From: Candidatus Bathyarchaeota archaeon
Lineage (GTDB): Archaea > Thermoproteota > Bathyarchaeia > Bathyarchaeales > Bathyarchaeaceae
NCBI GenBank assembly: GCA_026967815.1
Contig: JAPUUO010000001.1
Coordinates: 4,034-68,033 of the forward strand
DNA: 64,000 nt
Reading direction: 5' to 3'
Below the pieces are notes generated by a model. That model was given only the letters and a program-made list of their open reading frames with translations. It was not told the origin of the DNA and searched no databases. This document shows positions 5,562 through 24,403 of the stretch, one piece after another; position 1 is the stretch's first letter, and each line of letters starts with the position of its first letter. Made by a program: the position numbers and the translations under genes.

Positions 5562-6362
5562 TTATTCTTTGAATTTCCATATATACTTTCCTCTAAATTT
5601 TTGCAAGCGAATTGAACGAGAGCGATTGGATGGAGCAGAGCCGTAGACTTCGCACACCGCTTTTAATGACGGCCATTCTTTTATGAAATTTCCCTCTTTG
5701 TCATATTGAAGAACTGCCTTAGCATTCGTATGTGTGGGCTTATTGTATTGGGCATTATCTAATTTCAAAAAACTCCAAATATACCCTCCAGCCGAATATG
5801 TGTGACCCAAACATACTCGCCCTATGGCAGTATTCTTTATACCAGTATGACGAGCTGCTTCTGCGGCACTTTCGTATTCAGCAATAAACTCTCCGTTCAT
5901 AGCATATTGGTAAACTTTTTTGGGAGCATTTGGAGTGTTTTTGATTATTTTAGTCGCATTGCTTCTATTGGCGACCTCCGAAATATATGTATTATCTCTG
6001 CAATGTTGCATTGTTAATACATTGTTGGCGTTCTCCTTAGGCGTAACCCATCGTAGATTTGACAATGAATAGTTGGTTACATCGGTGTCAATATGGTCTA
6101 TAAACGGTTTATTGTCGGGGTTGGGAATAAAGGCCAATGCAATTATACGATGTAGCGGAGTGACTCGACTCTTCCTGTTCTTACACAAAGTGACACAAGG
6201 ATAACCACCGGACCCGCTGTGGACTTCTTTTATGCGCCCTCTTACGTGGCGCATAGACTTACCTTGCGGAACATAACGCTCAACTGATTTAACTCGACCG
6301 AGATTGCTCACTTCATACAGCCCCTCATAACCTACTACTGGTTTCCAAATTTCTTGCTCCAT
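5562..6362 (-). CDS. NUMOD4/HNH homing endonuclease
   Basis: From ATG 6362: MEQEIWKPVVGYEGLYEVSNLGRVKS..HRIIALAFIPNPDNKPFIDHID..LRWVTPKENANN, with C-terminal GGYIWSF/GKYIWKF repeats. The gene is visibly AT-rich relative to its flanks. Confidence 0.85.
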   Translation of the reverse strand: MEQEIWKPVVGYEGLYEVSNLGRVKSVERYVPQGKSMRHVRGRIKEVHSGSGGYPCVTLCKNRKSRVTPLHRIIALAFIPNPDNKPFIDHIDTDVTNYSLSNLRWVTPKENANNVLTMQHCRDNTYISEVANRSNATKIIKNTPNAPKKVYQYAMNGEFIAEYESAAEAARHTGIKNTAIGRVCLGHTYSAGGYIWSFLKLDNAQYNKPTHTNAKAVLQYDKEGNFIKEWPSLKAVCEVYGSAPSNRSRSIRLQKFRGKYIWKFKE

Positions 6363-6430
6363 AATCTGTTTATTATTATATACAAAGATATAATCTTTGC
6401 GCCAAATAACCAAATTATTTGCAAGTTTTT

Positions 6431-6853
6431 TTAGAGCCAATCATCCCAATCTGCGCCTATGCCTTTTGCATCAAGGTCAACAAGAAAGTGGCGGAAAGCA
6501 TTGCCCCCTTTGAGGTCAGGGTCCCCTATCATATCGGCGACATACTGACACAATCCCTTTTCGTCAATGATGCTTGACTTGTAGAGGTCTGCCTTGGCTT
6601 GGTGGAAGTAATAGCAGAAGTCGTAGCCTACATTATCCTCAATCTTAATGCCATACTTCTGCAAAAGTTCCTCAATCTGCTCCTTCGGAACATATTCTAT
6701 ACGCTCCAGCTTGCCCGTAGCAGGATTTAGACGGCGCATCCCTTTGACTGCGGATTCAAGAGATTTTTTCGCAAAGTGATAGCCATACGAGCGCAAGTAC
6801 GCCCTCATTGACTCAGGAAGTTTCAATTCGTAGTTATCCAATGGTGTTGCCAT
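6431..6853 (-). CDS. Hypothetical protein
   Basis: 140-aa ORF with no recognisable motif. Confidence 0.5.
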   Translation of the reverse strand: MATPLDNYELKLPESMRAYLRSYGYHFAKKSLESAVKGMRRLNPATGKLERIEYVPKEQIEELLQKYGIKIEDNVGYDFCYYFHQAKADLYKSSIIDEKGLCQYVADMIGDPDLKGGNAFRHFLVDLDAKGIGADWDDWL

Positions 6854-6945: not shown

Positions 6946-7257
6946 TTATCGGCGATAGCGTGAGTATCGACCGGTTCCTCTGACACCACGGCGTTCGCCG
7001 AAGTCGTCGTCATCGTCCCAGCCGTCATCCTCGCGGTTGCCGTAACGGTTGCCGTAGTTACCGCCACCATTGCCGCCGGAATAGCCGCCGCCACGGTTTC
7101 CATAGCGGTTTCCGTAGCCTCCGCGCTCGCCCATCTGCGACTCCTCGGCAAGGTCTTCGATGCACTCATAAAGTTCCTTGCCGTATTTGAGGAGCTTCTT
7201 CGCCTTGTCTCTCAGCTCGTCTTTTTCCTCGGAGCTGATTTCAATTATATAGCCCAT
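6946..7257 (-). CDS. Gly/Arg/Tyr/Asn low-complexity (RGG-like) protein
   Basis: 103 aa. A helical acidic N-terminus is followed by GERGGYGNRYGNRGGGYSGGNGGGNYGNRYGNREDDGWDDDDDFGERRGVRGTGRYSRYRR. Confidence 0.55.
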   Translation of the reverse strand: MGYIIEISSEEKDELRDKAKKLLKYGKELYECIEDLAEESQMGERGGYGNRYGNRGGGYSGGNGGGNYGNRYGNREDDGWDDDDDFGERRGVRGTGRYSRYRR

Positions 7258-7259
7258 AT

Positions 7260-7799
7260 TTATTTTGTTTTAGAAGATTTGTTTCCGTCAGCATCGAGTT
7301 TTGCCAACACCTGTGCCATCATGTTCTTAAGCTCGGCATTGTCCGAAGCCATTGTAGCCATCTGATTCTTCATCGTGGCGATTTCCTGCTCGCGACGCTG
7401 GTTCTCGGCGTACTCAGGATTGAGCTGCATAAGTATCTCGTCATATTTGACAATCTTCTGCCGCTCCTCGTCCACGCGGTTGATGATGCCCACAGCTTCG
7501 TTTTTCAGAGTGGCGATTTCGGCGTTCATCGCATCGCGGCTCACGGTCACGAACACGTTGCCGTTGCTTACGTAGTTCGCGCTCTCCTTGTTTGCCGGAA
7601 GCTGCTGGAACTGACGCTGTGCGCCGCCGACATTGGCGAACACGTCAACTACCTGCTCCTGCATCTGCCCGAACTGCGGTGCTGTCGGGAACTTGTAGAC
7701 AGGCTGCGTTACCTGCGTGATGCTGCCGATTTCAATACGCGGCACACTCTCTTTATAGAGGATATAGATTGGTTGGTTTACTCTTGCTGACTGAAACAT
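7260..7799 (-). CDS. Hypothetical protein with C-terminal coiled coil
   Basis: ATG at 7799 (MFQSARVNQP..). The GTG at 7841 lies inside a perfect palindrome (7825-7848) and is unlikely to be the start. Confidence 0.5.
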   Translation of the reverse strand: MFQSARVNQPIYILYKESVPRIEIGSITQVTQPVYKFPTAPQFGQMQEQVVDVFANVGGAQRQFQQLPANKESANYVSNGNVFVTVSRDAMNAEIATLKNEAVGIINRVDEERQKIVKYDEILMQLNPEYAENQRREQEIATMKNQMATMASDNAELKNMMAQVLAKLDADGNKSSKTK

Positions 7800-7855
7800 A
7801 TCTTGGTTTGTGAATTGATAGAAGTGTGAGGGGAGTTTCACCCCTCACGGATTGT

Positions 7856-8341
7856 TTACTCTGTCGGCGTTGTCGCTGCCGCCCCTGCCGTGTTGGTGAA
7901 CTCCACGAAGCGTGCCACTCCGCGCCTCTTGTCTAGGTACAGAAGCCTCTCTGTTGTTCCCTGCACGTTCGCCCCGGTCACGTTATTGCCCTGCGAGTCC
8001 ACTACGGGCACCCTTGTAGAGGTCGAGCCTGTAGTAGCTCCCGTCGTCGAGGTCGTGGTGCTTCCACCCGGTATCGCGATATGGATAGGGAAGCCCTCGC
8101 CGCCTGTAGGCACGTCCGCATGGATAGTCAGCAGGATAAGACTCTCGCACGGCAATTCGCGGTACTCGCACGGATTGAAGCCGTAGACCACCTGCGAAGC
8201 GGTGGTGTCGAGCACAACGGAGTTGGTGCTGATTTTATATATGCCTCCTACGTCTATGCGTTTGAGGCGGCTGTGTGGCTGCTGCGGAATCACCCCCATA
8301 GGAGGCATCCACCAATACGGATTCATTGCGTTAGGATACAT
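7856..8341 (-). CDS. Hypothetical protein, Pro-rich N-terminus, Thr/Ser/Gly-rich patch
   Basis: 161-aa ORF. A possible beta-rich fibre-tip-like domain is a guess only. Confidence 0.45.
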   Translation of the reverse strand: MYPNAMNPYWWMPPMGVIPQQPHSRLKRIDVGGIYKISTNSVVLDTTASQVVYGFNPCEYRELPCESLILLTIHADVPTGGEGFPIHIAIPGGSTTTSTTGATTGSTSTRVPVVDSQGNNVTGANVQGTTERLLYLDKRRGVARFVEFTNTAGAAATTPTE

Positions 8342-8366
8342 AGCTAATCTTGTTTAGGGTTAAGAA

Positions 8367-8792
8367 TCAGCATCCGCATCCGTTAGCATAGGGGGCGACA
8401 CCGAAGCTGACGGGTTGTGAGTACGACACAGGCACAAGGTTGCTCATCGCAGGGATGTAGGGGATGTTCACAGTCGGGGGTTGTTTGCAGGCTATGTCGG
8501 AAAGCTGCTTGTAAATAGGAGCGAGTTCAGCCTGACGTTCCGAGCGGGCGGTGAGAGTGGCGATGATGCGGTCTTTCTCCGCAAGTTCACGGTCTTTGCG
8601 GCTGTCTTCGATGGCGTCGAGCTTCAGAAGCTCCTCCACGCCGGTACCCAGTTCCACAAGACGGCGAAGATACTTGCGCACCGTGTTGCGCGCTACGCCC
8701 GTCAGGTTGCTGATGCTTTTTGCTCCGGTGCCGCTGCCGTGACAGCGTAGCACCTGTCTTAGTTTGTTCATGCTTAGTCTTCGATTTGCCAT
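8367..8792 (-). CDS. IS21 IstA-N-terminus-like HTH DNA-binding protein with coiled coil (regulator or small-terminase candidate)
   Basis: MNKLRQVLRCHGSGTGAKSISNLTGVARNTVRKYLRRLVELG resembles Bacteroidota IstA N-terminal HTH. There is no DDE domain and no istB. A repeat array lies immediately upstream. Confidence 0.5.
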   Translation of the reverse strand: MANRRLSMNKLRQVLRCHGSGTGAKSISNLTGVARNTVRKYLRRLVELGTGVEELLKLDAIEDSRKDRELAEKDRIIATLTARSERQAELAPIYKQLSDIACKQPPTVNIPYIPAMSNLVPVSYSQPVSFGVAPYANGCGC

Positions 8793-8871
8793 CCATTATA
8801 TGTTTTATGTATTTTTAACATATAATATAGCCTCAAGACTCCTTTCCCGCAATCTTTTTTCCTCTTTTTCA

Positions 8872-8955
8872 GGGGGCAATTTCAATGAGCAGCACGGGGT
8901 CAATTTAGTTGGGTTTTAGGGGGGCAGTTTCTTTGACCACAACGGGGTTAATTTA
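8872..8955 (+). repeat. Four tandem ~24-bp units GGGG(G/T)(C/T)A(A/G)TTT (two 48-bp super-units)
   Basis: GGGGGCAATTTC 8872-8883, GGGGTCAATTTA 8896-8907, GGGGGGCAGTTTC 8919-8931, GGGGTTAATTTA 8944-8955. Spacing is 23-25 bp. Confidence 0.8.
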
Positions 8956-9011
8956 ACTGAGTTTTTCCAGTTTAGGTTTGGAAGAGTTAGACGGCTCAGA
9001 GGTTGCAGGGG

Positions 9012-9509
9012 CTATTTTACTGCCCGCTTCGGAGGCTCGTATTTCAGTCCGGTCAGTTTGTTGTTCGGCGGCTTGCGCCCGCGCTCGTCTTTGCAGTCAG
9101 TGCGCTCACAACGCCATTGTTTCAGATATTCAACGAGTGTGTTGAGGTAGCCGTTTTCTGCGGCGAGCCTCGCTATCTCGTCCTTGTCGGCATTGCGTCC
9201 GTGCTCGGAGTCTATCAGCTGTGAGGTGAGTTTGCGTATCTGCTCGGTCTTGCCGTCGAGAGCCTTGTTCTGCTCGGCTATCCGCTCGGCGTTGTCTTTC
9301 TCCATCTTGATATAGATGTCAAGGCTCTGCTGCTGGTGCGTTATCTGCATATGCAGCCTTTCAACCTCGGCCTTGTCGGCATCATGCTCGGCAAGCTCGG
9401 TCTCGGCATAGTCCTTGCGCTTTCGGTGGGGTAGGGCGAAGTGCATGATTATGTCCCCGACAAAACCGATGCCCAGCACGCTCAACACTATTGTCTGTAA
9501 TACTTCCAT
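9012..9509 (-). CDS. N-terminal-TMD coiled-coil protein (i-spanin-like or class-III-like holin)
   Basis: A TMD (VLQTIVLSVLGIGFVGDIIMHFAL) is followed by a long coiled coil and C-terminal Cys residues. Last gene of the lysis cluster. Confidence 0.4.
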   Translation of the reverse strand: MEVLQTIVLSVLGIGFVGDIIMHFALPHRKRKDYAETELAEHDADKAEVERLHMQITHQQQSLDIYIKMEKDNAERIAEQNKALDGKTEQIRKLTSQLIDSEHGRNADKDEIARLAAENGYLNTLVEYLKQWRCERTDCKDERGRKPPNNKLTGLKYEPPKRAVK

Positions 9510-9512
9510 CGC

Positions 9513-10067
9513 TTATTTCCTGAATTTCTTTATGACTAAACCTGTTGCAGCGACCGCAGCGACAATCACCGCAGCGGCCAGGCAGATTGCTGAGGCATCG
9601 GGCGGCTTGCTGACGGCGGTTGTCTCCTTGGCCTCGTCCTCGGTAGCCTCGTGGGTGGTGCGTCTCTCGGACATGACTGCTGACGAGTCGGCGGTCTCGG
9701 CGTGGTGAAGCTCCGCGCTGCCTTTGCCGGCGGTCAGGCTGTCGGCCTCGGCCATCATACGCGGCGCGTGTATGACCGCGCCTGACGGGAGGGTGACACT
9801 GTTGGCCACAAGCTGCATCTTCAAGTGCCGCATGGCCAGCGTCAGCCAGTTAATCACGCCGCTATCTGTGCGAGTGTAACGCACCACCGACGAGTCCACC
9901 GTCTGAGCTGCGCTGTCCCTTTCCGTGCGTTGTGTGTGCTTCTGAGAGGAACATCCCCCCAGGGTTATCATCAGCACCAACAGGATGATGATGACCGCCA
10001 CGCAGCCGCCCATCACGCGGTTCTGCGTCCGCTGCTCCCTCTCGATGTCAAATCTGTCTCGTGGCAT
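9513..10067 (-). CDS. Lipobox + C-terminal TMD protein (unimolecular-spanin-like architecture)
   Basis: Signal/lipobox VLMITLGGC-SS (possible start at M19) and C-terminal TMD ICLAAAVIVAAVAATGLVI-KKFRK. Lies directly downstream of the amidase. Confidence 0.45.
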   Translation of the reverse strand: MPRDRFDIEREQRTQNRVMGGCVAVIIILLVLMITLGGCSSQKHTQRTERDSAAQTVDSSVVRYTRTDSGVINWLTLAMRHLKMQLVANSVTLPSGAVIHAPRMMAEADSLTAGKGSAELHHAETADSSAVMSERRTTHEATEDEAKETTAVSKPPDASAICLAAAVIVAAVAATGLVIKKFRK

Positions 10068-10069
10068 GG

Positions 10070-10519
10070 TCAGATGTTTTTATATTCAGGTATAGCATCA
10101 AAGCAGGGGCATTCCTTGACACGTTCCCACGGGTCGATGATACCGTTGTGGTTGCGGTCCACGCTCGCAATGTCGCGGTGCCCGAGGATGCGGGCATGGG
10201 GATAGCGCATGCGAAGCTCGCGCAGCAGACGCACGAGGGCTTCCTTCTGTTGCGCCGTGCGGTTGTCTGTGCCGCGCCCCTTGCCGTCTATGCCGCCCAC
10301 GTATGCTATGTTTATGCTGTCTCCGTTGTGGCCTCTCACCCCGTTGCTTATCCTGTCCTCCGCGAGGGTGCATACGGTGTGTCCGTCACGTTCCACTATG
10401 TAGTGGTAGCCCGGGGCTTTCCACCCGAGCTGGGTGCGGTGGTAGCGGACGATGTCGTCCGCGCTCTGTGTCTGCGCCCCTGCGGTGCAGTGGACGACGA
10501 TGTTGTTGATCTTTCTCAT
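10070..10519 (-). CDS. N-acetylmuramoyl-L-alanine amidase (Amidase_2/PGRP-type endolysin)
   Basis: From ATG 10519: MRKINNIVVHCTAG..GYHYIVERDG..NIAYVGG..ILGHRD. The Gly/Arg-rich upstream extension in the ORF track is rejected. Confidence 0.8.
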   Translation of the reverse strand: MRKINNIVVHCTAGAQTQSADDIVRYHRTQLGWKAPGYHYIVERDGHTVCTLAEDRISNGVRGHNGDSINIAYVGGIDGKGRGTDNRTAQQKEALVRLLRELRMRYPHARILGHRDIASVDRNHNGIIDPWERVKECPCFDAIPEYKNI

Positions 10520-10581
10520 AAAATATGGTATGAATGGTGTTAATGCTATGCTGTCGGTCAGCGCGTCGCCGTATGAAAGGC

Positions 10582-10833
10582 TCACTCCGCGCCCTCCCCG
10601 GTGGCCGTGCCGCCGTTCGCGGCCTGTTCCTCGGCCTCCTGTGCCAGTCTGCGCTGTTCCTGTTCCCATGCCTCCACCTCGGAATCAGTGACCTCCGAGT
10701 AGTTGTCGGGCGAGTCCCCCTGCCCCAGATAGGCCGTCGTGGTGGCCGTGGAGAGGTCGCCGAGATATACGATGCGGTATCCGTCGGCTACTGTGAGTTT
10801 GCGCATGCCGTTTGCTGTTGTTGTCTGTTGCAT
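10582..10833 (-). CDS. Hypothetical protein
   Basis: 83-aa ORF between the tape measure and the amidase. No TMD. Confidence 0.45.
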   Translation of the reverse strand: MQQTTTANGMRKLTVADGYRIVYLGDLSTATTTAYLGQGDSPDNYSEVTDSEVEAWEQEQRRLAQEAEEQAANGGTATGEGAE

Positions 10834-10924: not shown

Positions 10925-13900
10925 TCATGTCGTGTATCGCGAGTTGACAGCCCAGCTCCCCCCCCTCGTCGTCACCACCCTCCCCAGCAGGGTGTGTATC
11001 TCCGCTATGTGGTGCTCTATCCTCGGCAGACTGCTCAGGTGAGCGTTCGCCGTCTCCATCATCGGCGTGTAGTCTATAGTTCCAGTCACCCCTGCTCCTG
11101 TAGTCCCGGCCTCCATAAGCCGCCTGATAGCCCACACATTCTCGTTCACCATCGCCATGTAGTGCGTCTGCGTCGTCAGAGCTGCCGTGTTCGCGTTAAC
11201 CTCCTCGCTCGTCGCCGACCCTACGGACTTCGCTATTCCGCGTGCCTCCTCCGCATCGCCACGGCTCTGGTAGCCCCACTGCTCAGCCCACGCCATGATG
11301 GCGGCTCCGGCAGCGTTCGCGTCGCGAGCACCCTTGTCCGCCGTCTCCATCACCCTCTCCCAGAAGCCCCGGTCGTAGAAGTCCCCCTCCTCCATCCTGT
11401 CTATCATGTCGAACGTCGGCTTCAGCGCACGCTCCATGGCCCGCGCCATCAGCCCCTCAGTCACCATGTTCTCCACCATCTCCCTGAATTTCTTCCCCAT
11501 CGCATCCGCCGTGTTCCCGAACTCCCTGTAGGCCTCCACCCACGCTTTTGCAAAGTCCCTCGCCGTTGATGACAGGTCTGACCCTATCAGCTGCTCGGCC
11601 ACCTTTCCTTGCAGCTCCGCCAGCCTGTCCATCGTCTCGCGGTACGAGTTCTCGTAATCCCTCAGCTTATCCTCGTCCGTTTTCTTCCCCTTGCTCCGCT
11701 CGGCCTCTGCCTGTTTTCGGTACGCTTCGGCCTGAGCTTGTAAATTTTTCTGTTGGGCTTTGATGTTCCCCACCATTTCTGACCCGAACACACGCTCCAT
11801 TGCCTTTTCGAGCCGACCGTAAGCATACTCCAGCTCCTCCAGTATCCGCTCCTGACGCTCAATCTCTTTGTTTGCCTTGCGGACTTTTGACCCCGTGAGC
11901 CATGAGCCTATGGCAGAGAAAGCTGCTATCGCTCCACCGATTGCCAATAGCCACCAACAAGCCGCCTCGATAGCTATTGCAATAGCGAGTATGGTTGTCA
12001 TTATTGTTGCCGCATTGTTCAGCCCCGACACAAGTCCGTTTACAATATCGCCAAGTTCGCTATCTTCCGCAACACCCATCATGTCGGCGATTGTTTGTAT
12101 TGAGCTTGCCGCAGAGCTGAAAGCGTTTGCCATTGCATTGACGTTCTTTGATAGTTTGGCGATAGCTGCTTTTTGAGCGTCAATGGCGTCTGTGGTGTTC
12201 TGTTCCGCTTTGTTGACCTGTTCAACAGCCTTGTTGCGCTTTTCGGTAGCTTGCGTTACTTTGGTTGTGGCATCGTTAAGGGCAAGTTGAGCCGCAACCC
12301 CCTCGTCAGTATTCAGCTTTCCCTGAGCCTCCAAGTCAGTAACACGCTGCTGTGCTATCGCTTGCTCAGCTTTGGCGGTTTGAATTGCCATATTCAGACC
12401 GACCTCTTGCTGTGCGAACTCGGCTTTTACCCTTGCTTCTTCGGCTTCTGCTGTTCGGTAGTCCTTACGGGCTTTTGCATACTCCTTGAAGCTGTCGATT
12501 ATTCCCTCTATCGGGTTCCTCGTTTCTCTCTCCTCGTTTATCTTGTCAAGTTGCTCGACAAGCGATTTCAAGCCCTCCACATTCTCAGTGTCTTTGACCG
12601 TAGCTATCATCTCCTGCAAACGCTTCTTCATACGGTCAAGAGTCTGAGTGGAAACGCGGTCAAGATCTTGGAACACCTTTATATAATCGTCGCTTGACTT
12701 AAATTCGTCAACAGCGAGTTTAGCCAATTCCTGCGCCTGTTTGTCATAGGACAAAGACACAAGACGGTTACGCTCCTGTGGGTCACGCGTTTCCTTAATT
12801 ATCTTTGCACGTTTCTCGCTCTCTCGCCGTATAATCTCCGTGCGCTGCTCCTCATAGCTCTGCGCTTTTGCCAGCTCTTTCTGCCAATTTGATATATTGG
12901 TGGCCACCTCTTTTTGACCCTCCTGCGCTATCTTCTGCGCCGTGTCACGGTTCTTTTCAATGATGTCGTTCTGATACTTCTCGTATATGTCAGCAAGCAT
13001 CTTGTAGTCGATGCGCTGATTCGTCATGTCAAATACGGGTTCAAGGTCAATCACGACATCCTCCTTGCCACTCTTGAACACTTCCCGAATCTGCGCCACC
13101 GTGTCCTCAAACAGCTCCTCACCCGTAGAGCCGTAGATGCTCAACGACACACGGTTAGCCAACTCCACATCCCCCGTCTGACTAAGTATCTTCTCATAAA
13201 ACTCCTTCGCAGTCTTGGTGCGCGATATGCGGTCGGCAAGGCGTTTCAGCTCGGCTTCGATTTCTCTTTGTTGCTTGTCAATTGCGCTCTTGTCGCGCTT
13301 AAACCCAAGCTCAATAAGTATCTTGTCAGCGTTTTTGATGCCGAGGCGGTTGATTTCCTTGATAATGGCATCATACCATTTCTGCACGTCCTCGATGGTC
13401 TGCGGCACTTCAAATGCAGGGAGCTTGAATTTGTATTTGTCTGCCATTTTCTGCATATCGGCAAAAGATGATGCGAACAGTTTTTGAGTGTCTGCCAACG
13501 CTTTTGTCTGCCCCTCTTTTCTCAGCAAGTCGTCATACTCCTTGTTGATTTGCGCCATTTTGTTGGCAATGTCGTTGAGGATTTGCAGACGCGGGTCGGA
13601 TTGGCGAGTGCCACCACCAGACGTGCTTTTACCAAGAATTTCAGCCATTTTTGAATAAAATTCTTCAAGGTCTTTTGCATTCTCCAATTTATCTGCAATT
13701 TCCTTGTATGCCAATGAAATCACAGGGGTGGCGGCTAAAACTTTTGTAAGGTTTTCAACCTGTTTAGCATAATCCTTAGCGGTATCATTTATTTTCTTTC
13801 GATAGGCTTCCAGCCCCTCTGTTGCACCCATCATATTGCCCCTGACTTTATCGATAAGCCCCATGCTATTGGCAAGTTCCTCAAACTTACTGCGAACACT

Positions 13901-16564
13901 TCTGACAACTGCGTCTTTTGGCACAATTTCATTATATCCCTTTGCAATGTTATCAAGTAACTTTTTTATATCGCTGTGACCGCTACCGAGGGCATTTTTT
14001 ATTGCCTGAATATTGATTGTGGCTATATCGGCAATGTTGAATGCTTTGTCGTTATCTATGTTGAACCATTCATTTTCAATCTTGATATTCTCGGCTTTAA
14101 GAGCATCAACAATAACACCGCCCCATGTCCTTATCTGCTCCGCATTTACCTCCTGTTGATATGCGAATGTATCACTTTTAAACCCTTGTGGAATAAAGTC
14201 AGCCATGTGTTTCTTGGCATCCTCCATAGCCTTTGTATATTTGCCAAGAGCCCCTTCTAATCCTTCATAATAACTTAAAGTTCCTGAAACTTCTTCGTTG
14301 TATTTTCGGGTTGCATTCGCAAGGTCATTGATATAACCATCTTCGGGAAATAAAGCCTTGTAGGTTATCGCAGTTGTGCCAAACATTAATGGCAGGTTCT
14401 TTCCAAACCATTCAAGGGCTTTATTCCAAAAGCCTTTTTCTTCGGCGATTGAGTTTGCAAGTTTTTCTCCCCCCTCAATCCCGGCTTCGTTAAACGCGGC
14501 CACAATCTGCTCTTTGAGCGACTTTGAGGTGTCTTGTGCTTGCTTTTCAAATTCAGCAAAGAATCGAGTACGTTCCTCAACCCCTAAACCTTGTTTATCA
14601 AACCAATCATACAGGTTCTTCATTGCGGTTATACGTTTTGCCCCAAATTCTTCCTCAATAGCACCCAATGCTTTCTGCTTTTGCTGTTGGGCGATATAAT
14701 TTCGTATGGATTCAGTTAGACTTTTATATCCCTCGGCTGCGCTATCTGCTCCACTTCTTAATTTCCGTAGATTCTCAATTGACATATCTTCAACAGGAAT
14801 CATATCCTTGAATGTGCGGTGCAGCTCATCGAGTTTGTCTTTCTGTTCTTTTGACCCATCTGCCGCCTTGATTGCAGCATCAGCAAGATATTCAAAATTG
14901 CGGACTGACTGCGAAGCCAATGTAATACGTTCCGCGTCTATTTCGTTCAACTTACGGTCAAGACGATGTGCGTTCTCGTAGGCTTCAAACAATTTATATA
15001 CGAGTGTTGTAACCGCTGTAATAGCCAATCCGATGCCTAACCCTGCTCCAATGGATTTTGCAACTGACACAAATCCGCTTTTGAGCAAGCCCATTCGGGT
15101 AGTGGCCTTTTGCGCCGCGACTTCATCCGCTTTTGCTTTTTGCAAGGTCGCCCATGCTGCGTTTATTTCATCAACAGTTGCTTTTTCATTCAATTTCGCC
15201 AACTGTAAGACAGCAGCTTTTCTTCGCTCGGTTGCTGCCGCTGCTGCGGATTGAGCGGCTTCGACCCTTTGACTTGCAGTTGAATATTTGTATAGCGCAA
15301 GGATGGCGGCATTGGGGAGAATGAAATATTGAGCTGTATTTGCAACGGCTTTCCAATTCCTCATCAATTCCGTCAGCAGACCAATGGCTGTTTTCATGCC
15401 TTGGTTTACGCTCTCTGTATTACCGATTTCATCGTACATTACCGAAGCAGCGTCACCAAGTTTCGCCCATAGACCGAACAATGTGTTGCCCTGCTTCTCT
15501 TGAATGTTATAGAATTGACCGCCTGCGGATGTCATATCCTTGAATACCTCCTCAACCATTTCAAAAGAAATGGCTCGTTTGGATATTAAGTCCATGACTT
15601 CTGCGGCTGTATATCCTCGTCCGTTCAGTTCTTCGAGTTTCTTCGCCAACTTGTCAACGAGGGGTATTCCCATTTCAGTTGCCTGCCTTAATTCACTCGC
15701 GCGAAGATAACCTGTTGCGAAAACCTGCCCGAAAAATAATGTCGCACGTGACATATCCGTACCTAATCCGACGGAAATATCTGTCAGCATCTTAGTCGTG
15801 TCAAACAACTTCTTTGTCTCAACCCCATACGCCGCTACTTGCTTTGTATATTTTGTCAAGTCCATAATTGACACGGGCGACTTCAAAGCAAATGTCTTGA
15901 TTTCGGAGAAAAGCTGATTGGCTTTGTTCGTATCTTGAATTATTGCACCGAGAGAAACCCTCTGCAATTCAAACTGAGCCGTGACCTCTCTGATATTGGT
16001 TAGGAAATTCTGTACTTGCTGAACGCTCCATACTGCCACCATTTTCTTTAGGAGGCGTTCAATATAAAAAGTTTGAGAGTCGTATGCTTTTGTTAGATTA
16101 TTAACCGCAGTGGTCGCTTTATTAGCCGCTGTTGCAGACTTTTCTCTTGCGGCGGCTAATTTTAGCTCGGCTTGTTCCGCTTTTGCTGCTCTCTGACGAG
16201 CCAATTCACGGGCTGCTGCTGCTTTGGCTTCAATTTCATCAACTCTTGCACCTCGTACCTCCGCAGTTCCGACACTTCTGCTTGAATATTTCTGCACTTG
16301 TTCAAGAGCTTTGGCGAGAACCGTCAATTCCCTCGCAAGTTCTTTGATTGCGGATTTCGTTTCGGGAGTAATTGGCTCAATCTTTAACTGAGCAAGGCGG
16401 GTCTTAACATCCGTCAAATTCTCAAAATCGAGTTTCACCTTGACAGCTCGTTTGGCTAAGATTGACTCCAACTTAGCCGCGTACTTCTTATCCCATTCTT
16501 GCCCTGCTTCTTCGACCGCTTTTTGGAGGTCAAACCCTATCGGAAATATCAAATTATCCGCCAT
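10925..16564 (-). CDS. Tail tape measure protein (1879 aa)
   Basis: Very long, Ala/Lys/Glu-rich coiled-coil protein with hydrophobic segments (AIAIEAACWWLLAIGGAIAAFSAIGSWL). Sits downstream of the tail chaperones. Confidence 0.85.
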   Translation of the reverse strand: MADNLIFPIGFDLQKAVEEAGQEWDKKYAAKLESILAKRAVKVKLDFENLTDVKTRLAQLKIEPITPETKSAIKELARELTVLAKALEQVQKYSSRSVGTAEVRGARVDEIEAKAAAARELARQRAAKAEQAELKLAAAREKSATAANKATTAVNNLTKAYDSQTFYIERLLKKMVAVWSVQQVQNFLTNIREVTAQFELQRVSLGAIIQDTNKANQLFSEIKTFALKSPVSIMDLTKYTKQVAAYGVETKKLFDTTKMLTDISVGLGTDMSRATLFFGQVFATGYLRASELRQATEMGIPLVDKLAKKLEELNGRGYTAAEVMDLISKRAISFEMVEEVFKDMTSAGGQFYNIQEKQGNTLFGLWAKLGDAASVMYDEIGNTESVNQGMKTAIGLLTELMRNWKAVANTAQYFILPNAAILALYKYSTASQRVEAAQSAAAAATERRKAAVLQLAKLNEKATVDEINAAWATLQKAKADEVAAQKATTRMGLLKSGFVSVAKSIGAGLGIGLAITAVTTLVYKLFEAYENAHRLDRKLNEIDAERITLASQSVRNFEYLADAAIKAADGSKEQKDKLDELHRTFKDMIPVEDMSIENLRKLRSGADSAAEGYKSLTESIRNYIAQQQKQKALGAIEEEFGAKRITAMKNLYDWFDKQGLGVEERTRFFAEFEKQAQDTSKSLKEQIVAAFNEAGIEGGEKLANSIAEEKGFWNKALEWFGKNLPLMFGTTAITYKALFPEDGYINDLANATRKYNEEVSGTLSYYEGLEGALGKYTKAMEDAKKHMADFIPQGFKSDTFAYQQEVNAEQIRTWGGVIVDALKAENIKIENEWFNIDNDKAFNIADIATINIQAIKNALGSGHSDIKKLLDNIAKGYNEIVPKDAVVRSVRSKFEELANSMGLIDKVRGNMMGATEGLEAYRKKINDTAKDYAKQVENLTKVLAATPVISLAYKEIADKLENAKDLEEFYSKMAEILGKSTSGGGTRQSDPRLQILNDIANKMAQINKEYDDLLRKEGQTKALADTQKLFASSFADMQKMADKYKFKLPAFEVPQTIEDVQKWYDAIIKEINRLGIKNADKILIELGFKRDKSAIDKQQREIEAELKRLADRISRTKTAKEFYEKILSQTGDVELANRVSLSIYGSTGEELFEDTVAQIREVFKSGKEDVVIDLEPVFDMTNQRIDYKMLADIYEKYQNDIIEKNRDTAQKIAQEGQKEVATNISNWQKELAKAQSYEEQRTEIIRRESEKRAKIIKETRDPQERNRLVSLSYDKQAQELAKLAVDEFKSSDDYIKVFQDLDRVSTQTLDRMKKRLQEMIATVKDTENVEGLKSLVEQLDKINEERETRNPIEGIIDSFKEYAKARKDYRTAEAEEARVKAEFAQQEVGLNMAIQTAKAEQAIAQQRVTDLEAQGKLNTDEGVAAQLALNDATTKVTQATEKRNKAVEQVNKAEQNTTDAIDAQKAAIAKLSKNVNAMANAFSSAASSIQTIADMMGVAEDSELGDIVNGLVSGLNNAATIMTTILAIAIAIEAACWWLLAIGGAIAAFSAIGSWLTGSKVRKANKEIERQERILEELEYAYGRLEKAMERVFGSEMVGNIKAQQKNLQAQAEAYRKQAEAERSKGKKTDEDKLRDYENSYRETMDRLAELQGKVAEQLIGSDLSSTARDFAKAWVEAYREFGNTADAMGKKFREMVENMVTEGLMARAMERALKPTFDMIDRMEEGDFYDRGFWERVMETADKGARDANAAGAAIMAWAEQWGYQSRGDAEEARGIAKSVGSATSEEVNANTAALTTQTHYMAMVNENVWAIRRLMEAGTTGAGVTGTIDYTPMMETANAHLSSLPRIEHHIAEIHTLLGRVVTTRGGSWAVNSRYTT

Positions 16565-16648
16565 TGCTTATATTGTGTTGTAAAACATAGCCAATTCAGG
16601 CGTTTGTTTGTTGTTGTTTTTGTATCTTTGTGGATTAAATCAAGTTTT

Positions 16649-16816
16649 ATGAACTACTTCGACACTTTTATGGGGCTGACCCTATTGGAAGATATATTTG
16701 GTGGACTTAAAGATTTAGCCACCTCTCCCGACACTGCCAAATGGTTTTGGGGCATAGCTGTTGGGCTAATTGTGGTGTTGTCAATCTCATTATTCATCGT
16801 CAAACTTTTCTGTTGA
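16649..16816 (+). CDS. Small membrane protein (55 aa), opposite-strand cassette gene a
   Basis: ATG 16649 follows -7 box TATCTTTG (16623-16630). C-terminal TMD WFWGIAVGLIVVLSISLFIV. Confidence 0.5.
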   Translation: MNYFDTFMGLTLLEDIFGGLKDLATSPDTAKWFWGIAVGLIVVLSISLFIVKLFC

Positions 16817-16817
16817 A

Positions 16818-17201
16818 ATGGCGCAACTTGTAATCCTCGCCGTCCTTTTGATTTTCGTCGGCTTTATCGGCTTCAGTATTTTTCGTAATCGCAAATCTGA
16901 TGGGACGGCAAACCTTGAAAAAACTTTGTCTTTTGACCCCACGTCTGATATTGAACCGATACAATCTGCATCTACGCCAAGTCCCGATTTTACACATAAG
17001 CCTTGTGCGTTAGCCGTGACCCTACGGATTGTCGGCGTGGTAAACATATTTGCCGCCATTATTTTAGGGCTTGTGTTGGCCGATGATTTTGGTTGGGTTA
17101 TATCCATAGCCGTAATTCTTTCAGGTTGTCTTGGTTGCTTGTTTTGTTATGCGTTTGCCAAGTGCGTAGAGGCAGCTGACAAGTATCTGAATAGCCATTA
17201 A
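16818..17201 (+). CDS. Three-TMD membrane protein (127 aa), cassette gene b
   Basis: ATG 16818 lies 1 nt after the gene a stop. TMDs: LVILAVLLIFVGFIGFSIF, LRIVGVVNIFAAIILGLVLA, VISIAVILSGCLGCLFCYAFA. Confidence 0.55.
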   Translation: MAQLVILAVLLIFVGFIGFSIFRNRKSDGTANLEKTLSFDPTSDIEPIQSASTPSPDFTHKPCALAVTLRIVGVVNIFAAIILGLVLADDFGWVISIAVILSGCLGCLFCYAFAKCVEAADKYLNSH

Positions 17202-17207
17202 AGCACA

Positions 17208-17247
17208 AGAGCCACCCGCGATTCCTCGCGAATGGCTCTTTGGCTCT
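17208..17247. terminator. Hairpin AGAGCCA..TGGCTCT plus extra GGCTCT (AGAGCC-doublet element, copy 1)
   Basis: AGAGCCA 17208-17214 pairs with TGGCTCT 17233-17239 (inner stem CGCGA/TCGCG), then TT and GGCTCT 17242-17247. Confidence 0.6.
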
Positions 17248-17266
17248 AACGGTCATATTTATTGTG

Positions 17267-17298
17267 CAAAGATAGTAAAAAATATAATCGATAGCAAA
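17267..17298 (-). promoter_or_regulatory. Canonical Bacteroidota promoter pointing toward the tape-measure gene
   Basis: Minus strand reads TTTG (17298-17295) - N20 - TATCTTTG (17274-17267). Confidence 0.5.
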
Positions 17299-17385
17299 TT
17301 GCTCGGTTTGTTGTTCTAATGTTCATGTCTATATTGAATTAGATATTTGAATAATACACAAACACCTATGGAATAGACGATTATA

Positions 17386-17417
17386 TTTGCTATTGTCAAC
17401 TTTTTACACTAACTTTG
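17386..17417 (+). promoter_or_regulatory. Canonical promoter of cassette gene c
   Basis: TTTG 17386-17389 - N20 - TAACTTTG 17410-17417, with the ATG at 17453. Confidence 0.55.
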
Positions 17418-17452
17418 CGTTGAAATAGTAAACCCAAAGCCCTTGAGCTTTT

Positions 17453-18130
17453 ATGGAACCTGTCACTCGCTTCATAGAGCAAAACTTCGGACTGTCATTT
17501 CTTGTAGGAGTGATAGTCGTTGGAACTGTTATCAGCGGAATTGTATGGATTACAATTTGGGCTGTCAAGCTAACCAATAAGCATAAAGACGTGTCAAAGC
17601 GCATTGATGATGTACCGTGCCCTCACCACACATCCAAAATAGAGAGGCATGATGAGCAATTTGCAGATACTCGTGCTTTAATGAGCCGAATGGAGGGACA
17701 ACTTGAATTATGGGTGCAAAATTCGATAGAAAAGAGCAATAGTAAAATAAAGAAAAAATCGGGGCTTGCGTTTAGTGCAAAACACAGTCCACGACAGTTG
17801 AATGGGAATGGCATAGAGCTATTAAACGATTGCGGTGGCAAGGATTTTCTTGAAGCCAATATGAGTTTCTTCATAGACAAAATGGAGAAGTTAAAACCCA
17901 AAACAGCTCTTGATGTTGAGGATATGGCTTTGGCTATTCTGCAAACCCATACTAATGAGGATATGTTTATTCCACTCAAAAGTTGGGTTTACAATGCTCC
18001 GTCAAGAGAACTTAAGAACCCCAATGGTTCTACAAAAACGCAGGATGTTGATTTAGACGATGTGATATTTGTTTTGTCACTTCCATTGAGAGACAAATAC
18101 CTTGAACTCCATCCTGAAATTATTAAATAA
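17453..18130 (+). CDS. Membrane-anchored protein (225 aa), cassette gene c; candidate superinfection-exclusion/abortive-infection factor
   Basis: N-terminal TMD FLVGVIVVGTVISGIVWITIWAV followed by a soluble C-terminal domain. It has its own promoter and terminator, is AT-rich, and is on the opposite strand to the surrounding tail genes. Confidence 0.35.
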   Translation: MEPVTRFIEQNFGLSFLVGVIVVGTVISGIVWITIWAVKLTNKHKDVSKRIDDVPCPHHTSKIERHDEQFADTRALMSRMEGQLELWVQNSIEKSNSKIKKKSGLAFSAKHSPRQLNGNGIELLNDCGGKDFLEANMSFFIDKMEKLKPKTALDVEDMALAILQTHTNEDMFIPLKSWVYNAPSRELKNPNGSTKTQDVDLDDVIFVLSLPLRDKYLELHPEIIK

Positions 18131-18140
18131 TGAAATATAG

Positions 18141-18175
18141 GGGCGACGCATCACCGCATCGCCCTTTTCTTTTCC
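18141..18175 (+). terminator. Intrinsic terminator of gene c
   Basis: GGGCGA 18141-18146 pairs with TCGCCC 18159-18164, followed by TTTTCTTTTCC. Confidence 0.6.
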
Positions 18176-18618
18176 TCCGCCATCACCTCGGCTTGCAGTT
18201 CCTCCGGCGTGAGGGGTTTCTTCTTGGGTCTTACGTTCAGTCCCATGCCGCGAAGTTTAGCCTCCAGTTCATCATCGCTCGTTGCCGCTGTCAGTGCCGC
18301 CTCTGTCCGCTCGCTCGGCTTCTCGTAGTCATAGTCGTAATAGCCCTTGTCAAGCAACATAAACGTTACCCAATTTTCGGTATCTAAAAACCAATACCGA
18401 AGCCAGCTCCATAGATTGTAGTTGCCGTAGATCGCCTTTATCTTCTCGTTGTCGGTTGCCTCGGCGAACAGACTGCCTACTTGCTGTCCTCCGCCTTTTT
18501 CTTCGTAGCGTCCTCCGCCGCTTGCGCCTCCGCCGCCCTCCATCTTTTCAGCGCCTCTCTTACGCCGTCGCCAATTGGTTTCATAGAGAGCGCGAGTTGA
18601 TGCTTTGTATTTTCCCAA
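18151..18618 (-). CDS. -1-frame extension of the tail chaperone (gpT-like part of a G-T fusion)
   Basis: The ORF is in the -1 frame relative to 18477-19043 (codon phase checked). There is no convincing independent start. Confidence 0.55.
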   Translation of the reverse strand: MGKYKASTRALYETNWRRRKRGAEKMEGGGGASGGGRYEEKGGGQQVGSLFAEATDNEKIKAIYGNYNLWSWLRYWFLDTENWVTFMLLDKGYYDYDYEKPSERTEAALTAATSDDELEAKLRGMGLNVRPKKKPLTPEELQAEVMAEEKKRAMR

Positions 18619-19043
18619 TTGGCTAAAGAAAAACCCACCTCTTCATCGTTTAAGGCGGCGTTGTTGATTGTGGCGGTATGCTCCTCGTATCGCAGCATGA
18701 GCCGCCGCCATGTCAGGGCGAAAAGAAACGGCACGAACAGAGCCTTGTTGCCTAACAGATAGTAGGCGGCTGTCTTGGCGTGGAGCGTGTCGAGCTTGCG
18801 CTGTATCTTCTTAGCCTTGCGCAGCGGCATTGCCTCTTTCTGCTTGCCCGACAGCGCGTAGGCTTCAAGTTCAAGCGTGTGGATGCGCTCTCTCACTTTC
18901 TTGCTCACCTGTCTTACGGTGTAAGTCTTGCCTCCGACGGCTATCACTCGCGGAAATCCGTGCTTGATATGCTCCTTTGCCGCTACCATGCGGTCAAGCT
19001 CCTCGGTTGTAAGCTCCTGCGGTTTTTCTTTGTCTTCGGTCAT
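18477..19043 (-). CDS. Tail assembly chaperone (gpG-like)
   Basis: 188-aa ORF upstream of the tape measure. Its 3' end overlaps a -1-frame ORF by 142 nt. Confidence 0.6.
   Translation of the reverse strand: MTEDKEKPQELTTEELDRMVAAKEHIKHGFPRVIAVGGKTYTVRQVSKKVRERIHTLELEAYALSGKQKEAMPLRKAKKIQRKLDTLHAKTAAYYLLGNKALFVPFLFALTWRRLMLRYEEHTATINNAALNDEEVGFSLANWENTKHQLALSMKPIGDGVREALKRWRAAEAQAAEDATKKKAEDSK
18495..18501 (-). promoter_or_regulatory. Candidate -1 slippery site G_AAA_AAG
   Basis: The minus-strand zero frame reads acg aag aaa aag gcg. Slipping -1 gives gaa aaa ggc gga (..KKGGGQQ..). Confidence 0.45.
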
Positions 19044-24320: not shown

Positions 24321-24331
24321 AATTGTATTTG

Positions 24332-24403
24332 TGGCGCGGGGCGGACTCGAACCGCCGACCTTAGCCTTATGAGGGCTACGAGCTACCGCTGCTCTACCGC
24401 GCT
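24332..24403 (-). tRNA. tRNA with CAT anticodon (Met; Ile2 or initiator-like not excluded)
   Basis: Hand-folded 72-nt cloverleaf: AGCGCGG-TA-GAGC-AGCGGTA-GCTC-G-TAGCC-CTCATAA-GGCTA-AGGTC-GGCGG-TTCGAGT-CCGCC-CCGCGCC-A. Position 1:72 is an A.C mismatch. No CCA is encoded. Confidence 0.8.

What the first reader, a model, noticed from the sequence alone, without database searches (positions are those of the whole stretch)
16565..18175. Opposite-strand, AT-rich, self-promoted membrane-protein cassette inserted between the tail chaperone (G/GT) and tape-measure genes
Three + strand genes interrupt an otherwise uninterrupted minus-strand tail operon at a junction that is normally contiguous (GT to TMP). 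They encode a 55-aa single-TMD protein, a 127-aa three-TMD protein and a 225-aa N-terminally anchored protein. The cassette has its own promoters (-7 box at 16623-16630; canonical TTTG-N20-TAACTTTG at 17386-17417). It also has its own terminators (17208-17239; 18141-18175). Its sequence is visibly more AT-rich than its flanks, which fits a moron expressed from the prophage. A canonical minus-strand promoter (17298-17267) carrying an AGAGCC doublet fires antisense through genes a and b toward the tape measure. This would allow lytic-phase antisense silencing and restart of tail-gene transcription. The membrane topology and position make it a candidate superinfection-exclusion, abortive-infection or other lysogen-protective system. 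No known defence domain is recognisable by eye.
Basis: partly seen in the sequence, partly recalled or inferred. Interest (0 to 1): 0.7.

Follow-up and report, generated by a model that had tools for sequence, protein, structure and literature searches.

The report
Moron cassette beside phage tape-measure gene
Three small membrane-protein genes with their own host-type promoters sit backwards between the tail-chaperone and tape-measure genes of a temperate Bacteroidales phage, at a spot where every related phage carries different extra genes; this is the classic 'moron' position, and the function of the proteins is still unknown.

Summary
Genes a (16649-16816), b (16818-17201) and c (17453-18130) are real and under purifying selection. 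They encode membrane proteins with 1, 3 and 1 predicted TM segments. They lie on the + strand inside a minus-strand late block, in the most AT-rich stretch of the window. They carry Bacteroides-type promoters and strong hairpin terminators.

The "three-gene insertion into a normally contiguous junction" reading needs correcting. None of the roughly 16 distinct relatives has GT and TMP adjacent. The gap runs from 0.77 kb to over 7 kb, with different cargo each time, so this is a family-wide accessory-gene hotspot. The cassette is two units:
- a-b is a semi-conserved module fixed about 84 nt from the TMP start, and it shares TMP's divergence level.
- c is one of many alternative cargo genes. It travels with its own promoter and also occurs alone in Bacteroidales chromosomes and in Mu-like phages.

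No family, defence or fold library recognises any of the three proteins. The endolysin lies downstream of TMP on the late strand, which argues against a lysis role.

The closest precedent is HK97 gene 15, the first named moron. It sits at the same junction and encodes an inner-membrane superinfection-exclusion protein. Verdict: a new member of a known kind, of moderate interest. A protective function is inferred, not shown.

The parts
10925..16564 (-). Tape measure protein gene (1879 aa); left flank of the hotspot
   Evidence: ORF. PF20155 TMP_3 on the identical protein in L024. Its N-terminal 400 aa are 53-92% identical in relatives.
16623..16630 (+). -7 box (TATCTTTG) of the a-b promoter, 18 nt upstream of the a start codon
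   Evidence: Sequence. The box is kept as TAnnTTTG in all 7 aligned loci. Every b-like gene in other lineages has a TAnnTTTG 12-37 nt upstream of its ATG.
16649..16816 (+). Gene a: 55-aa protein with an acidic N-terminus and one C-terminal TM segment (36-54)
   Evidence: 28 homologue clusters of 54-60 aa, one of 68. dN/dS is 0.18-0.23. It is always followed by b on the same contigs. No family match.
16818..17201 (+). Gene b: 127-aa protein with three TM segments and a conserved C-terminal motif, CYA(L/F)AKCV(D/E)AADKYL
   Evidence: 27 homologue clusters. 37 representatives among 1.84 billion proteins; the conserved core is the last two TM segments plus the C-terminal helix. dN/dS is 0.10-0.12. 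b-like genes are found in most relatives.
17208..17247 (.). a-b terminator: AGAGCC-stem-GGCTCT hairpin plus a second GGCTCT
   Evidence: Folds at -26.9 kcal/mol (plus) and -40.5 (minus), with z -6.9 and -8.6. The same design follows every TMP-divergent b or b-like gene. The inner stems differ in sequence but are each self-complementary.
17267..17298 (-). Canonical Bacteroides-type promoter pointing antisense through b and a toward TMP (TTTG-N20-TATCTTTG)
   Evidence: Pattern match. The -7 box (CAAAGATA on the plus strand) is invariant in 6 aligned relatives and L003, and a TATATTTG sits at the equivalent place in L006. The -33 element is not conserved. Function unknown.
17386..17417 (+). Promoter of c (TTTG-N20-TAACTTTG), 36 nt upstream of the ATG
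   Evidence: The same promoter and 5'UTR are found in L032. Full canonical promoters also precede the chromosomal c homologues in L015, L033 and L036.
17453..18130 (+). Gene c: 225-aa protein with an N-terminal TM anchor (17-35; positive-inside rule predicts N-out, C-in), one LPCxxH motif with coiled coil, and a conserved C-terminal domain of about 125 aa
   Evidence: 101 homologue clusters, those with a source name being Bacteroides, Bacteroidales or Muribaculaceae. Alignment A1. dN/dS 0.10-0.25. AF2 model of the C-domain has pLDDT 93.6. No fold or sequence match.
18139..18175 (.). Convergent terminator hairpin shared by c (plus strand, followed by UUUUCUUUU) and GT (minus strand); it overlaps the GT stop codon
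   Evidence: The identical 3' flank is found in L032 and L006.
18151..19043 (-). Tail assembly chaperone G (18477-19043) and the -1-frame GT extension (18151-18636); right flank of the hotspot
   Evidence: Overlapping ORFs in the -1 frame, with an in-phase G GGT TTT at 18636-18630. G is 75-98% identical in 14 IMG/VR relatives.

Best explanation
The region is the accessory-gene (moron) hotspot of a family of temperate Bacteroidales siphophage-like viruses. It lies at the seam between the head-tube-G/GT module and the TMP module.

It contains two autonomous transcription units that the host's primary sigma factor can read, independently of the late operon:
1. a-b is a pair of small inner-membrane proteins. 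It is physically tied to the 5' end of the TMP gene and is transcribed divergently from it.
2. c is a single-gene cargo unit. It encodes a membrane-anchored protein with a cytoplasmic domain of unrecognised fold. It is exchanged among phages and chromosomes together with its promoter.

Most likely mode of action (inferred, not shown): the proteins are made in the lysogen or early in infection and act at the cytoplasmic membrane to protect the cell or prophage. The a-b pair is the best candidate for an HK97-gp15-like block of TMP-mediated DNA entry. c is an independent protective or regulatory factor.

The conserved antisense promoter and hairpin after b probably couple cassette expression and TMP transcription during the lytic cycle. 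This is also inferred.
For: Shown:
- The genes are real. Homologue clusters number 28, 27 and 101 for a, b and c, and dN/dS is 0.10-0.25.
- TM segments are predicted in all three.
- GC is the lowest in the window.
- Canonical Bacteroides promoters are enriched, 7 against 0.55 expected, with two in the b-c spacer.
- Every b or b-like gene has its own -7 box.
- Every c homologue outside the Mu-like phages has a full canonical promoter, except the distant c-like gene in L006, whose only match lies about 120 nt upstream.
- Strong terminator hairpins, conserved with varied inner stems.
- Hotspot: 16 gap configurations from 767 nt to over 7 kb, none with GT and TMP adjacent. Cargo includes KilA-N, Bro-N/KilAC, Rha, T5orf172/MUG113, a DUF4379 zinc-finger protein, a C5 methylase and many unknown membrane proteins.
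- Mosaic seam: between the window and L027/L029/L032, dS is 0.33 for G but about 2 or saturated for the TMP N-terminus, 1.6-1.9 for b and about 0.8 for a.
- c occurs alone in chromosomes (L015-18, L033-36) and in the accessory region of Mu-like phages (L019-23).
- Temperate lifestyle: a tyrosine integrase at 61792-63027, and relatives sit near the ends of 138-153 kb contigs.
- The lysis genes are elsewhere: an Amidase_2 endolysin at 10070-10669 and spanin-like genes, all on the late strand.

Precedent: HK97 gene 15, the first moron, lies between the tail chaperone and TMP genes and encodes an inner-membrane superinfection-exclusion protein whose effect depends on the incoming phage's tail region (PMC3594210).
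Against: - No expression or phenotype data exist.
- There is no similarity to any known Sie, Abi or defence protein (PADLOC, Pfam, PHROGs, NCBIfam, PDB, BFVD).
- a-b is more conserved across relatives than a typical moron, which could indicate a phage-intrinsic role.
- In L002 and L005 the b-like gene is co-oriented with the late genes.
- b divergence does not track TMP divergence. L003 b is 70% identical to the window's while its TMP N-terminus is 62%; L027 b is 72% with TMP N-terminus at 92%.
- None of the 10 cargo proteins from relatives that were scanned matched PADLOC, so the hotspot is not demonstrably a defence island.
- Only one species-representative genome carries a b homologue, so lysogeny of this exact phage is inferred rather than seen.
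Confidence: 0.55

Rival explanations
1. Lysis accessory genes. On this reading a-b is a holin/antiholin pair (b has a class-I-like 3-TM, N-out/C-in layout). c is a releasin-like factor: an N-out/C-in membrane protein with a cytoplasmic helical domain, like Mu gp25 (DUF2730).
For: - b has 3 TM segments and b-like proteins have 2, both of which are holin-like topologies.
- No obvious holin lies next to the endolysin, apart from a 165-aa protein with an N-terminal TM segment.
- a-b is conserved in most relatives.
- One long c homologue (P0096) reaches PF10805/DUF2730 at 27.3 bits, and precomputed hits are listed for P0037, P0038 and P0097. DUF2730 is the Mu releasin family, with the same predicted topology (PMC9239132).
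- The c homologue P0089 sits in Mu-like phages.
Against: - a, b and c are on the opposite strand from the late and lysis genes, with host-type promoters.
- The endolysin is about 6 kb away across TMP and has no SAR-like N-terminus.
- Holin family matches are not significant (E 0.08).
- c itself has no DUF2730 hit. The P0096 hit covers only the repeated coiled-coil region, not the conserved C-domain.
- c homologues occur as solo chromosomal genes between housekeeping genes, each with its own promoter.
- No b-like gene is found in the 16.5 kb held around G in L001, L004, L012 and L013. In L001 and L004 an unrelated gene occupies the TMP-divergent position.
Confidence: 0.13
2. Lysogenic-conversion or host-fitness genes unrelated to phage defence, for example envelope, stress or colonisation functions. 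They would be carried as ordinary morons.
For: - The structural evidence is the same as for the best explanation: autonomous host-type promoters, membrane location, and a variable hotspot.
- c homologues sit in chromosomes next to housekeeping or cell-surface sugar genes such as rml.
- There is no defence signature.
Against: - The tight and conserved physical link of a-b to the TMP start across divergent lineages is easier to explain by a phage-directed function.
- The families are narrow: 37 representatives for b.
Confidence: 0.2
3. Mainly a transcriptional device. On this reading the divergent and antisense promoters and the hairpins exist to gate or restart TMP transcription, through an attenuated internal promoter or an antisense RNA. 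The small ORFs are secondary.
For: - The antisense -7 box and the AGAGCC...GGCTCT-NN-GGCTCT hairpin are conserved after b in several lineages.
- Two strong minus-strand hairpins lie between GT and TMP.
- A 23-nt invariant block precedes the TMP ATG.
Against: - a, b and c are under purifying selection as proteins, with conserved motifs.
- The -33 element of the antisense promoter is not conserved, and strict promoter matches pointing toward TMP are absent from most relatives.
- No Rfam family matches the region.
Confidence: 0.07
4. Chance ORFs or an annotation artefact in an AT-rich spacer.
For: The ORFs are small, and no library gives a family match.
Against: - Homologue clusters number 28, 27 and 101, with conserved lengths.
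- dN/dS is 0.10-0.25.
- Start positions and promoters are conserved.
Confidence: 0.01

Closest known systems
HK97 gene 15 moron (gp15, a YebO-related inner-membrane superinfection-exclusion protein)
   Same: It occupies the same genomic position, between the tail assembly chaperone and tape measure genes. It has its own promoter and terminator and a deviant base composition, and it encodes a small inner-membrane protein. It is expressed from the prophage, and its exclusion depends on the tail region of the incoming phage (PMC3594210).
   Different: There is no sequence similarity. HK97 gene 15 is a single gene co-oriented with the late operon (my own knowledge). Here there are two units on the opposite strand, a conserved a-b pair, and a slot with many alternative cargos. 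The function here is untested.
Phage accessory or defence hotspots at fixed genome positions (for example the P2/P4 hotspots; Rousset et al. 2022, cited from my own knowledge and listed as reference 12 of PMC10884400)
   Same: Conserved flanking genes bracket highly variable cargo that differs between close relatives. The cargo is AT-rich and has its own promoters.
   Different: The cargo here shows no match to known defence systems. The hotspot lies inside the tail operon of Bacteroidales phages and includes a semi-conserved resident module (a-b).
Mu gp25 releasin (DUF2730, PF10805)
   Same: It has an N-terminal TM anchor, a predicted N-out/C-in topology and a helical cytoplasmic part. Some c-family members give a marginal PF10805 hit, and some c homologues are in Mu-like phages.
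   Different: c itself does not match PF10805. c has an extra conserved C-terminal domain of about 125 aa. It is not near the endolysin, the endolysin is not a SAR type, and c also occurs as a solo chromosomal gene.
Holins (class I with 3 TM, class II with 2 TM)
   Same: Similar size and TM count for b and b-like proteins.
   Different: Opposite strand, a host-type promoter, not adjacent to the endolysin, no significant match to any holin family, and a C-terminal tail that is not highly basic.

Membership tests
Moron (Juhala/Hendrix definition) | Extra gene(s) present in some phages and absent or different in close relatives, between conserved neighbours | tested here: met
   There are 16 different gap contents between conserved G/GT and TMP. 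c is replaced by T5orf172/MUG113, Rha or unknown genes in relatives that keep a-b. Caveat: a-b itself is semi-conserved.
Moron (Juhala/Hendrix definition) | Own promoter and own terminator | tested here: met
   Met at sequence-pattern level only. Canonical or -7 promoter elements are conserved. Hairpins have z -3.5 to -8.6 and are conserved.
Moron (Juhala/Hendrix definition) | Base composition different from the neighbouring genes | tested here: met
   GC is 0.398 against 0.508, the lowest window in the 64 kb. GC3 is 0.38-0.48 against 0.52-0.72.
Moron (Juhala/Hendrix definition) | Expressed from the repressed prophage | not testable with these tools
   Needs RNA-seq of a lysogen.
HK97 gp15 / YebO-type superinfection exclusion | Sequence homology to gp15/YebO | tested here: not met
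   No Pfam or NCBIfam hit of that kind for a, b or c.
HK97 gp15 / YebO-type superinfection exclusion | Small inner-membrane protein encoded between the tail chaperone and TMP genes | tested here: met
   Position and predicted TM segments. Precedent in PMC3594210.
HK97 gp15 / YebO-type superinfection exclusion | Blocks DNA entry of the cognate or related phages without affecting adsorption | not testable with these tools
   Needs phage challenge and DNA-entry assays.
Known anti-phage defence systems (PADLOC-DB 2.0) | Match to a defence-system protein model | tested here: not met
   No hits at E<=1 for a, b and c. No hits at E<=0.01 for 10 cargo proteins of relatives.
Holin | Encoded in the late transcription unit next to the endolysin | tested here: not met
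   The endolysin (Amidase_2) is at 10070-10669 on the minus strand, about 6 kb away across TMP. a and b are on the plus strand.
Holin | Match to a holin family, or a hydrophilic, highly charged C-terminus after the last TM segment | tested here: inconclusive
   The only hits are phrog_689 at E 0.082 and XhlA at E 0.087, both for a. The C-tail of b, AKCVEAADKYLNSH, is short and near neutral. TM counts are compatible.
Mu gp25 releasin (DUF2730) | PF10805 match over the TM segment plus cytoplasmic domain | tested here: not met
   c gives no hit at E<=1. P0096 scores 27.3 bits over its repeat region only.
Mu gp25 releasin (DUF2730) | [quoted passage not shown] | tested here: not met
   c is separated from the endolysin by a, b and TMP and lies on the other strand. 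No transposase was noted among the window proteins scanned; an integrase was found.

The most novel reading that the evidence does not exclude
a-b is a TMP-linked superinfection-exclusion pair conserved across a family of gut Bacteroidales temperate phages. c founds a new family of single-gene, membrane-anchored anti-phage proteins, built from an LPCxxH repeat and a C-terminal domain of unrecognised fold. c is swapped as promoter-to-terminator alleles inside a tail-operon defence island. The conserved antisense promoter and hairpin shut the cassette off and re-prime TMP transcription on induction.
Probability: 0.2. Interest if true: 0.6.

Novelty: new member of a known kind. Interest (0 to 1): 0.4.

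Why it matters
Morons at the chaperone/TMP junction are textbook in coliphage HK97, but prophage-encoded protection in gut Bacteroidales phages is almost uncharted.

This locus provides:
- a cleanly delimited hotspot with conserved flanks, which can be mined across metagenomes;
- two uncharacterised membrane-protein families, a-b and c, seen only in Bacteroidales or unnamed metagenome sequences. Both are abundant in gut metagenomes: the exact b protein is listed in 260 blocks of the assembly collection;
- a conserved promoter and terminator architecture that can be tested directly.

If a-b or c protect lysogens, they would help explain phage-host coexistence in the gut. They would also add new single-gene or two-gene exclusion systems. 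If they do nothing of the sort, the locus remains an ordinary moron site.

Tried and rejected
- Family scans of a, b and c against Pfam, PHROGs, PADLOC and NCBIfam gave nothing significant.
- The GenBank phage collection gave no DNA match for the tail region. c gave only a weak hit to a Megaira phage, and b gave a 30% hit in Dulem virus 40.
- The full-length c model (pLDDT 85) and the C-domain model (pLDDT 93.6) gave no match at E<=0.001 in PDB or BFVD by Foldseek. The weak MarR-like winged-helix hits (E about 1, TM<=0.3) were rejected as noise. A PDB sequence-profile search was also negative.
- A direct IMG/VR search with c found nothing.
- The idea that a strict toward-TMP promoter is universal in relatives was rejected. 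Among the relatives, strict matches pointing toward TMP occur only in L024 (identical to the window), L029 and L011. Only the -7 box is conserved in the a-b lineage.
- The idea that L003's inverted TMP block is a site-specific invertible segment found no support from flanking inverted repeats.
- The 52-aa minus-strand ORF 17098-17256, downstream of the antisense promoter, overlaps the variable hairpin and was not pursued as a gene.
- Rfam gave no credible RNA family.
- The genome-contig scan for b found only one Muribaculaceae MAG.
Full report
**What is there.** Between the 1879-aa tape measure gene (10925-16564, minus) and the G/GT chaperone pair (18151-19043, minus) lie three plus-strand ORFs:
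- a, 16649-16816, 55 aa
- b, 16818-17201, 127 aa
- c, 17453-18130, 225 aa

TMP identity rests on PF20155 TMP_3, called on the identical protein in L024. The G/GT assignment rests on three things: its position after a tube-like gene, an overlapping -1-frame ORF, and an in-phase slippery heptamer G GGT TTT at 18636-18630. Hydropathy gives 1, 3 and 1 TM segments for a, b and c. For c, the basic residues that follow the anchor predict an N-out, C-in topology (positive-inside rule, inference). The cassette has GC 0.398 against 0.508 for the rest of the minus-strand block, and it is the lowest-GC window of its size in the 64 kb.

**Signals.** The Bacteroides promoter consensus TTTG-N19-21-TAnnTTTG occurs 7 times in the window against 0.55 expected, and 0 of 100 shuffles reach 7. 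Two of the seven lie back to back in the b-c spacer, at 17267-17298 on the minus strand and 17386-17417 on the plus strand. Gene a is preceded by a -7 box at 16623-16630 without a canonically spaced -33.

The hairpin at 17208-17239 folds at -26.9 kcal/mol on the plus strand and -40.5 on the minus strand. The hairpin at 18139-18166 is followed by UUUUCUUUU on the plus strand and is shared convergently with GT.

**The genes are real.**
- c has 101 homologue clusters. The few that a source names are from Bacteroides, Bacteroidales or Muribaculaceae.
- b has 27 clusters and only 37 representatives among 1.84 billion proteins.
- a has 28 clusters, mostly 54-55 aa.
- Pairwise dN/dS is 0.18-0.23 for a, 0.10-0.12 for b and 0.10-0.25 for c.
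- The exact b protein is listed in 260 blocks of the assembly collection. All contigs read show the same a-b-c layout.

**Comparative anatomy changes the picture.** Fourteen IMG/VR relatives share G at 75-98% identity, and further relatives were fetched through a and b. None has GT and TMP adjacent. The gap is 767 nt in L001, about 1.45-1.9 kb in several loci, 2.8-3.8 kb in others, about 5 kb in L008 and L011, and over 7 kb in L012.

Cargo found in the gap includes KilA-N, Bro-N/KilAC, Rha, T5orf172/MUG113, a 699-aa DUF4379 zinc-finger protein, a C5 methylase and many unknown proteins. Of the cargo ORFs examined, 16 of 37 have a predicted TM segment.

Within this hotspot, a-b is a fixed resident. 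In L027-L032 it sits about 84 nt from the TMP ATG, exactly as in the window, with the -7 box position kept as TAnnTTTG. Shorter b-like genes have two TM segments and the same C-terminal AK.V.AA.KYL motif. They occupy the same TMP-divergent position in L006, L008, L010 and L011, and a co-oriented position after GT in L002 and L005. Each has its own TAnnTTTG 12-37 nt upstream of the ATG. No b-like gene is found in the 16.5 kb held for L001, L004, L012 and L013. In L001 and L004 an unrelated gene takes the TMP-divergent place.

The slot after b is the truly variable part. It holds c in the window, a 44%-identical c allele in L032, and unrelated genes elsewhere.

Synonymous divergence locates a mosaic seam in the slot. 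Between the window and L027/L029/L032, dS is 0.33 for G but about 2 or saturated for the TMP N-terminus, 1.6-1.9 for b and about 0.8 for a. On this measure a-b groups with TMP rather than with G.

**c is an autonomous, mobile gene.** Its homologues occur in three other settings:
- as solo chromosomal genes next to a MerR-type regulator gene and arabinofuranosidase genes (L015-18);
- as solo chromosomal genes between lepA and rml genes (L033-36);
- in the accessory region of Mu-like Bacteroidales phages, beside NYN, KilA-N, Bro-N and HicA genes (L019-23).

The chromosomal copies and the L032 allele each carry a full canonical promoter 37-49 nt upstream of the ATG. The window, L032, L015 and L006 also share a similar 5'UTR.

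The protein has a TM anchor, one to four LPCxxH-plus-coiled-coil repeats, and a conserved C-domain of about 125 aa. The C-domain models confidently (pLDDT 93.6, pTM 0.86), but it has no match at E<=0.001 in PDB or BFVD and none by PDB sequence profile.

**Lysis is elsewhere.** The gene directly downstream of TMP is an Amidase_2 endolysin (10070-10669). It is followed by a 184-aa protein with a lipobox and a C-terminal TM segment, and then by a 165-aa coiled-coil protein with an N-terminal TM segment. All are on the late strand.

DUF2730, which is hit marginally by some long c homologues, is the Mu gp25 releasin family (PMC9239132). However, c itself does not match it, c is not near the endolysin, and the endolysin has no SAR-like N-terminus. 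The lysis reading therefore stays a minority rival.

**The antisense promoter.** Its -7 box (CAAAGATA on the plus strand) is invariant in six aligned relatives and in L003, and a TATATTTG sits at the equivalent place in L006. It lies 56-92 nt after the b stop. It always comes after the conserved AGAGCC...GGCTCT-NN-GGCTCT hairpin, whose inner stem differs between lineages but stays self-complementary.

The -33 element is not conserved, and strict toward-TMP promoters are absent from most relatives. A transcript from this promoter would begin about 10 nt before a -40 kcal/mol hairpin. Whether it is a terminated antisense RNA, an attenuated restart promoter for TMP, or something else cannot be decided here.

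**Lifestyle.** The window carries a tyrosine integrase at 61792-63027 and a serine recombinase at 60723-61517. Relatives lie near the ends of 138-153 kb contigs, which fits integrated prophages. However, only one of the species-representative genomes has a b homologue.

**Comparison with what is known.** The term moron was first used for HK97 gene 15. That gene lies between the tail chaperone and TMP genes. It is expressed from the prophage and encodes an inner-membrane protein that blocks genome entry in a manner that depends on the incoming phage's tail region (PMC3594210). The present locus matches that archetype in position, autonomy, composition and membrane targeting, but not in sequence.

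It also differs in being a multi-unit hotspot on the opposite strand with a semi-conserved resident pair. It is therefore a new member of a known kind. The protective function is an inference from analogy and anatomy. Expression and phenotype are untested, and no library recognises the proteins.

Noticed in passing
L003:8400-16564 (IMGVR_UViG_3300029772_000300): The TMP gene and its adjacent b homologue are inverted relative to G/GT, so TMP converges on GT. No flanking inverted repeats longer than 22 nt were found, so it may be a real rearrangement or a misassembly.
   Followed up: partly
window 9012-10833: The lysis cassette lies directly downstream of TMP. It comprises an Amidase_2 endolysin (10070-10669), a 184-aa protein with a lipobox and a C-terminal TM segment (u-spanin-like, 9513-10067), and a 165-aa coiled-coil protein with an N-terminal TM segment (9012-9509). 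No Dit- or Tal-sized tail-tip genes follow TMP. A 2884-aa ORF sits far away, at 31070-39724 on the plus strand.
   Followed up: partly
window 6946-9509; L004:8900-11300; L011:8892-11800; L012:10788-11657: In the window, a run of genes follows the lysis genes: the 165-aa TM protein, an HTH protein of 141 aa, and proteins of 161, 193 and 103 aa. By eye, several of them look similar to ORFs that lie between GT and TMP in L004, L011 and L012, so whole modules appear to shuffle around TMP. Only the 165-aa protein's conserved C-terminus was compared directly.
   Followed up: no
window 5562-6440 and 6383-6414: An HNH/NUMOD homing-endonuclease-like gene on the late strand carries one of the seven canonical Bacteroides promoters in the window.
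   Followed up: no
window 17386-18175 vs L032:6800-7640: The c alleles of the window and L032 have nearly identical promoters, 5'UTRs and 3' flanks, but the proteins are only 44% identical (dN 0.59). This looks like allele replacement or rapid divergence inside fixed borders.
   Followed up: partly
alignment A1 (c family): The number of LPCxxH-plus-coiled-coil repeats between the TM anchor and the conserved C-domain varies from one to four among homologues. The Cys is nearly invariant, which suggests a metal or dimerisation site.
   Followed up: no
window 16569-16591: The block TTATATTGTGTTGTAAAACATAG lies just upstream of the TMP start codon, on the plus strand. It is nearly invariant in 7 loci, including the otherwise divergent L003, which has two substitutions. 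It may be the TMP translation-initiation region or a promoter element.
   Followed up: no
window 60723-63027: A serine recombinase (resolvase N-terminal domain, 264 aa) lies next to a tyrosine integrase with Arm-DNA-bind_5 and Phage_int_SAM_5 domains, near the right end of the window.
   Followed up: no
window 24331-24403: A tRNA-Met (CAT) gene lies on the minus strand, just upstream of the head-gene block.
   Followed up: no
L037 (Dulem virus 40, PP511379.1) 7127-7423: A b-like gene (30% identity) in a lemur-gut phage lies 1.4 kb upstream of, and co-oriented with, a hypothetical ORF of more than 1800 aa that may be its TMP.
   Followed up: no
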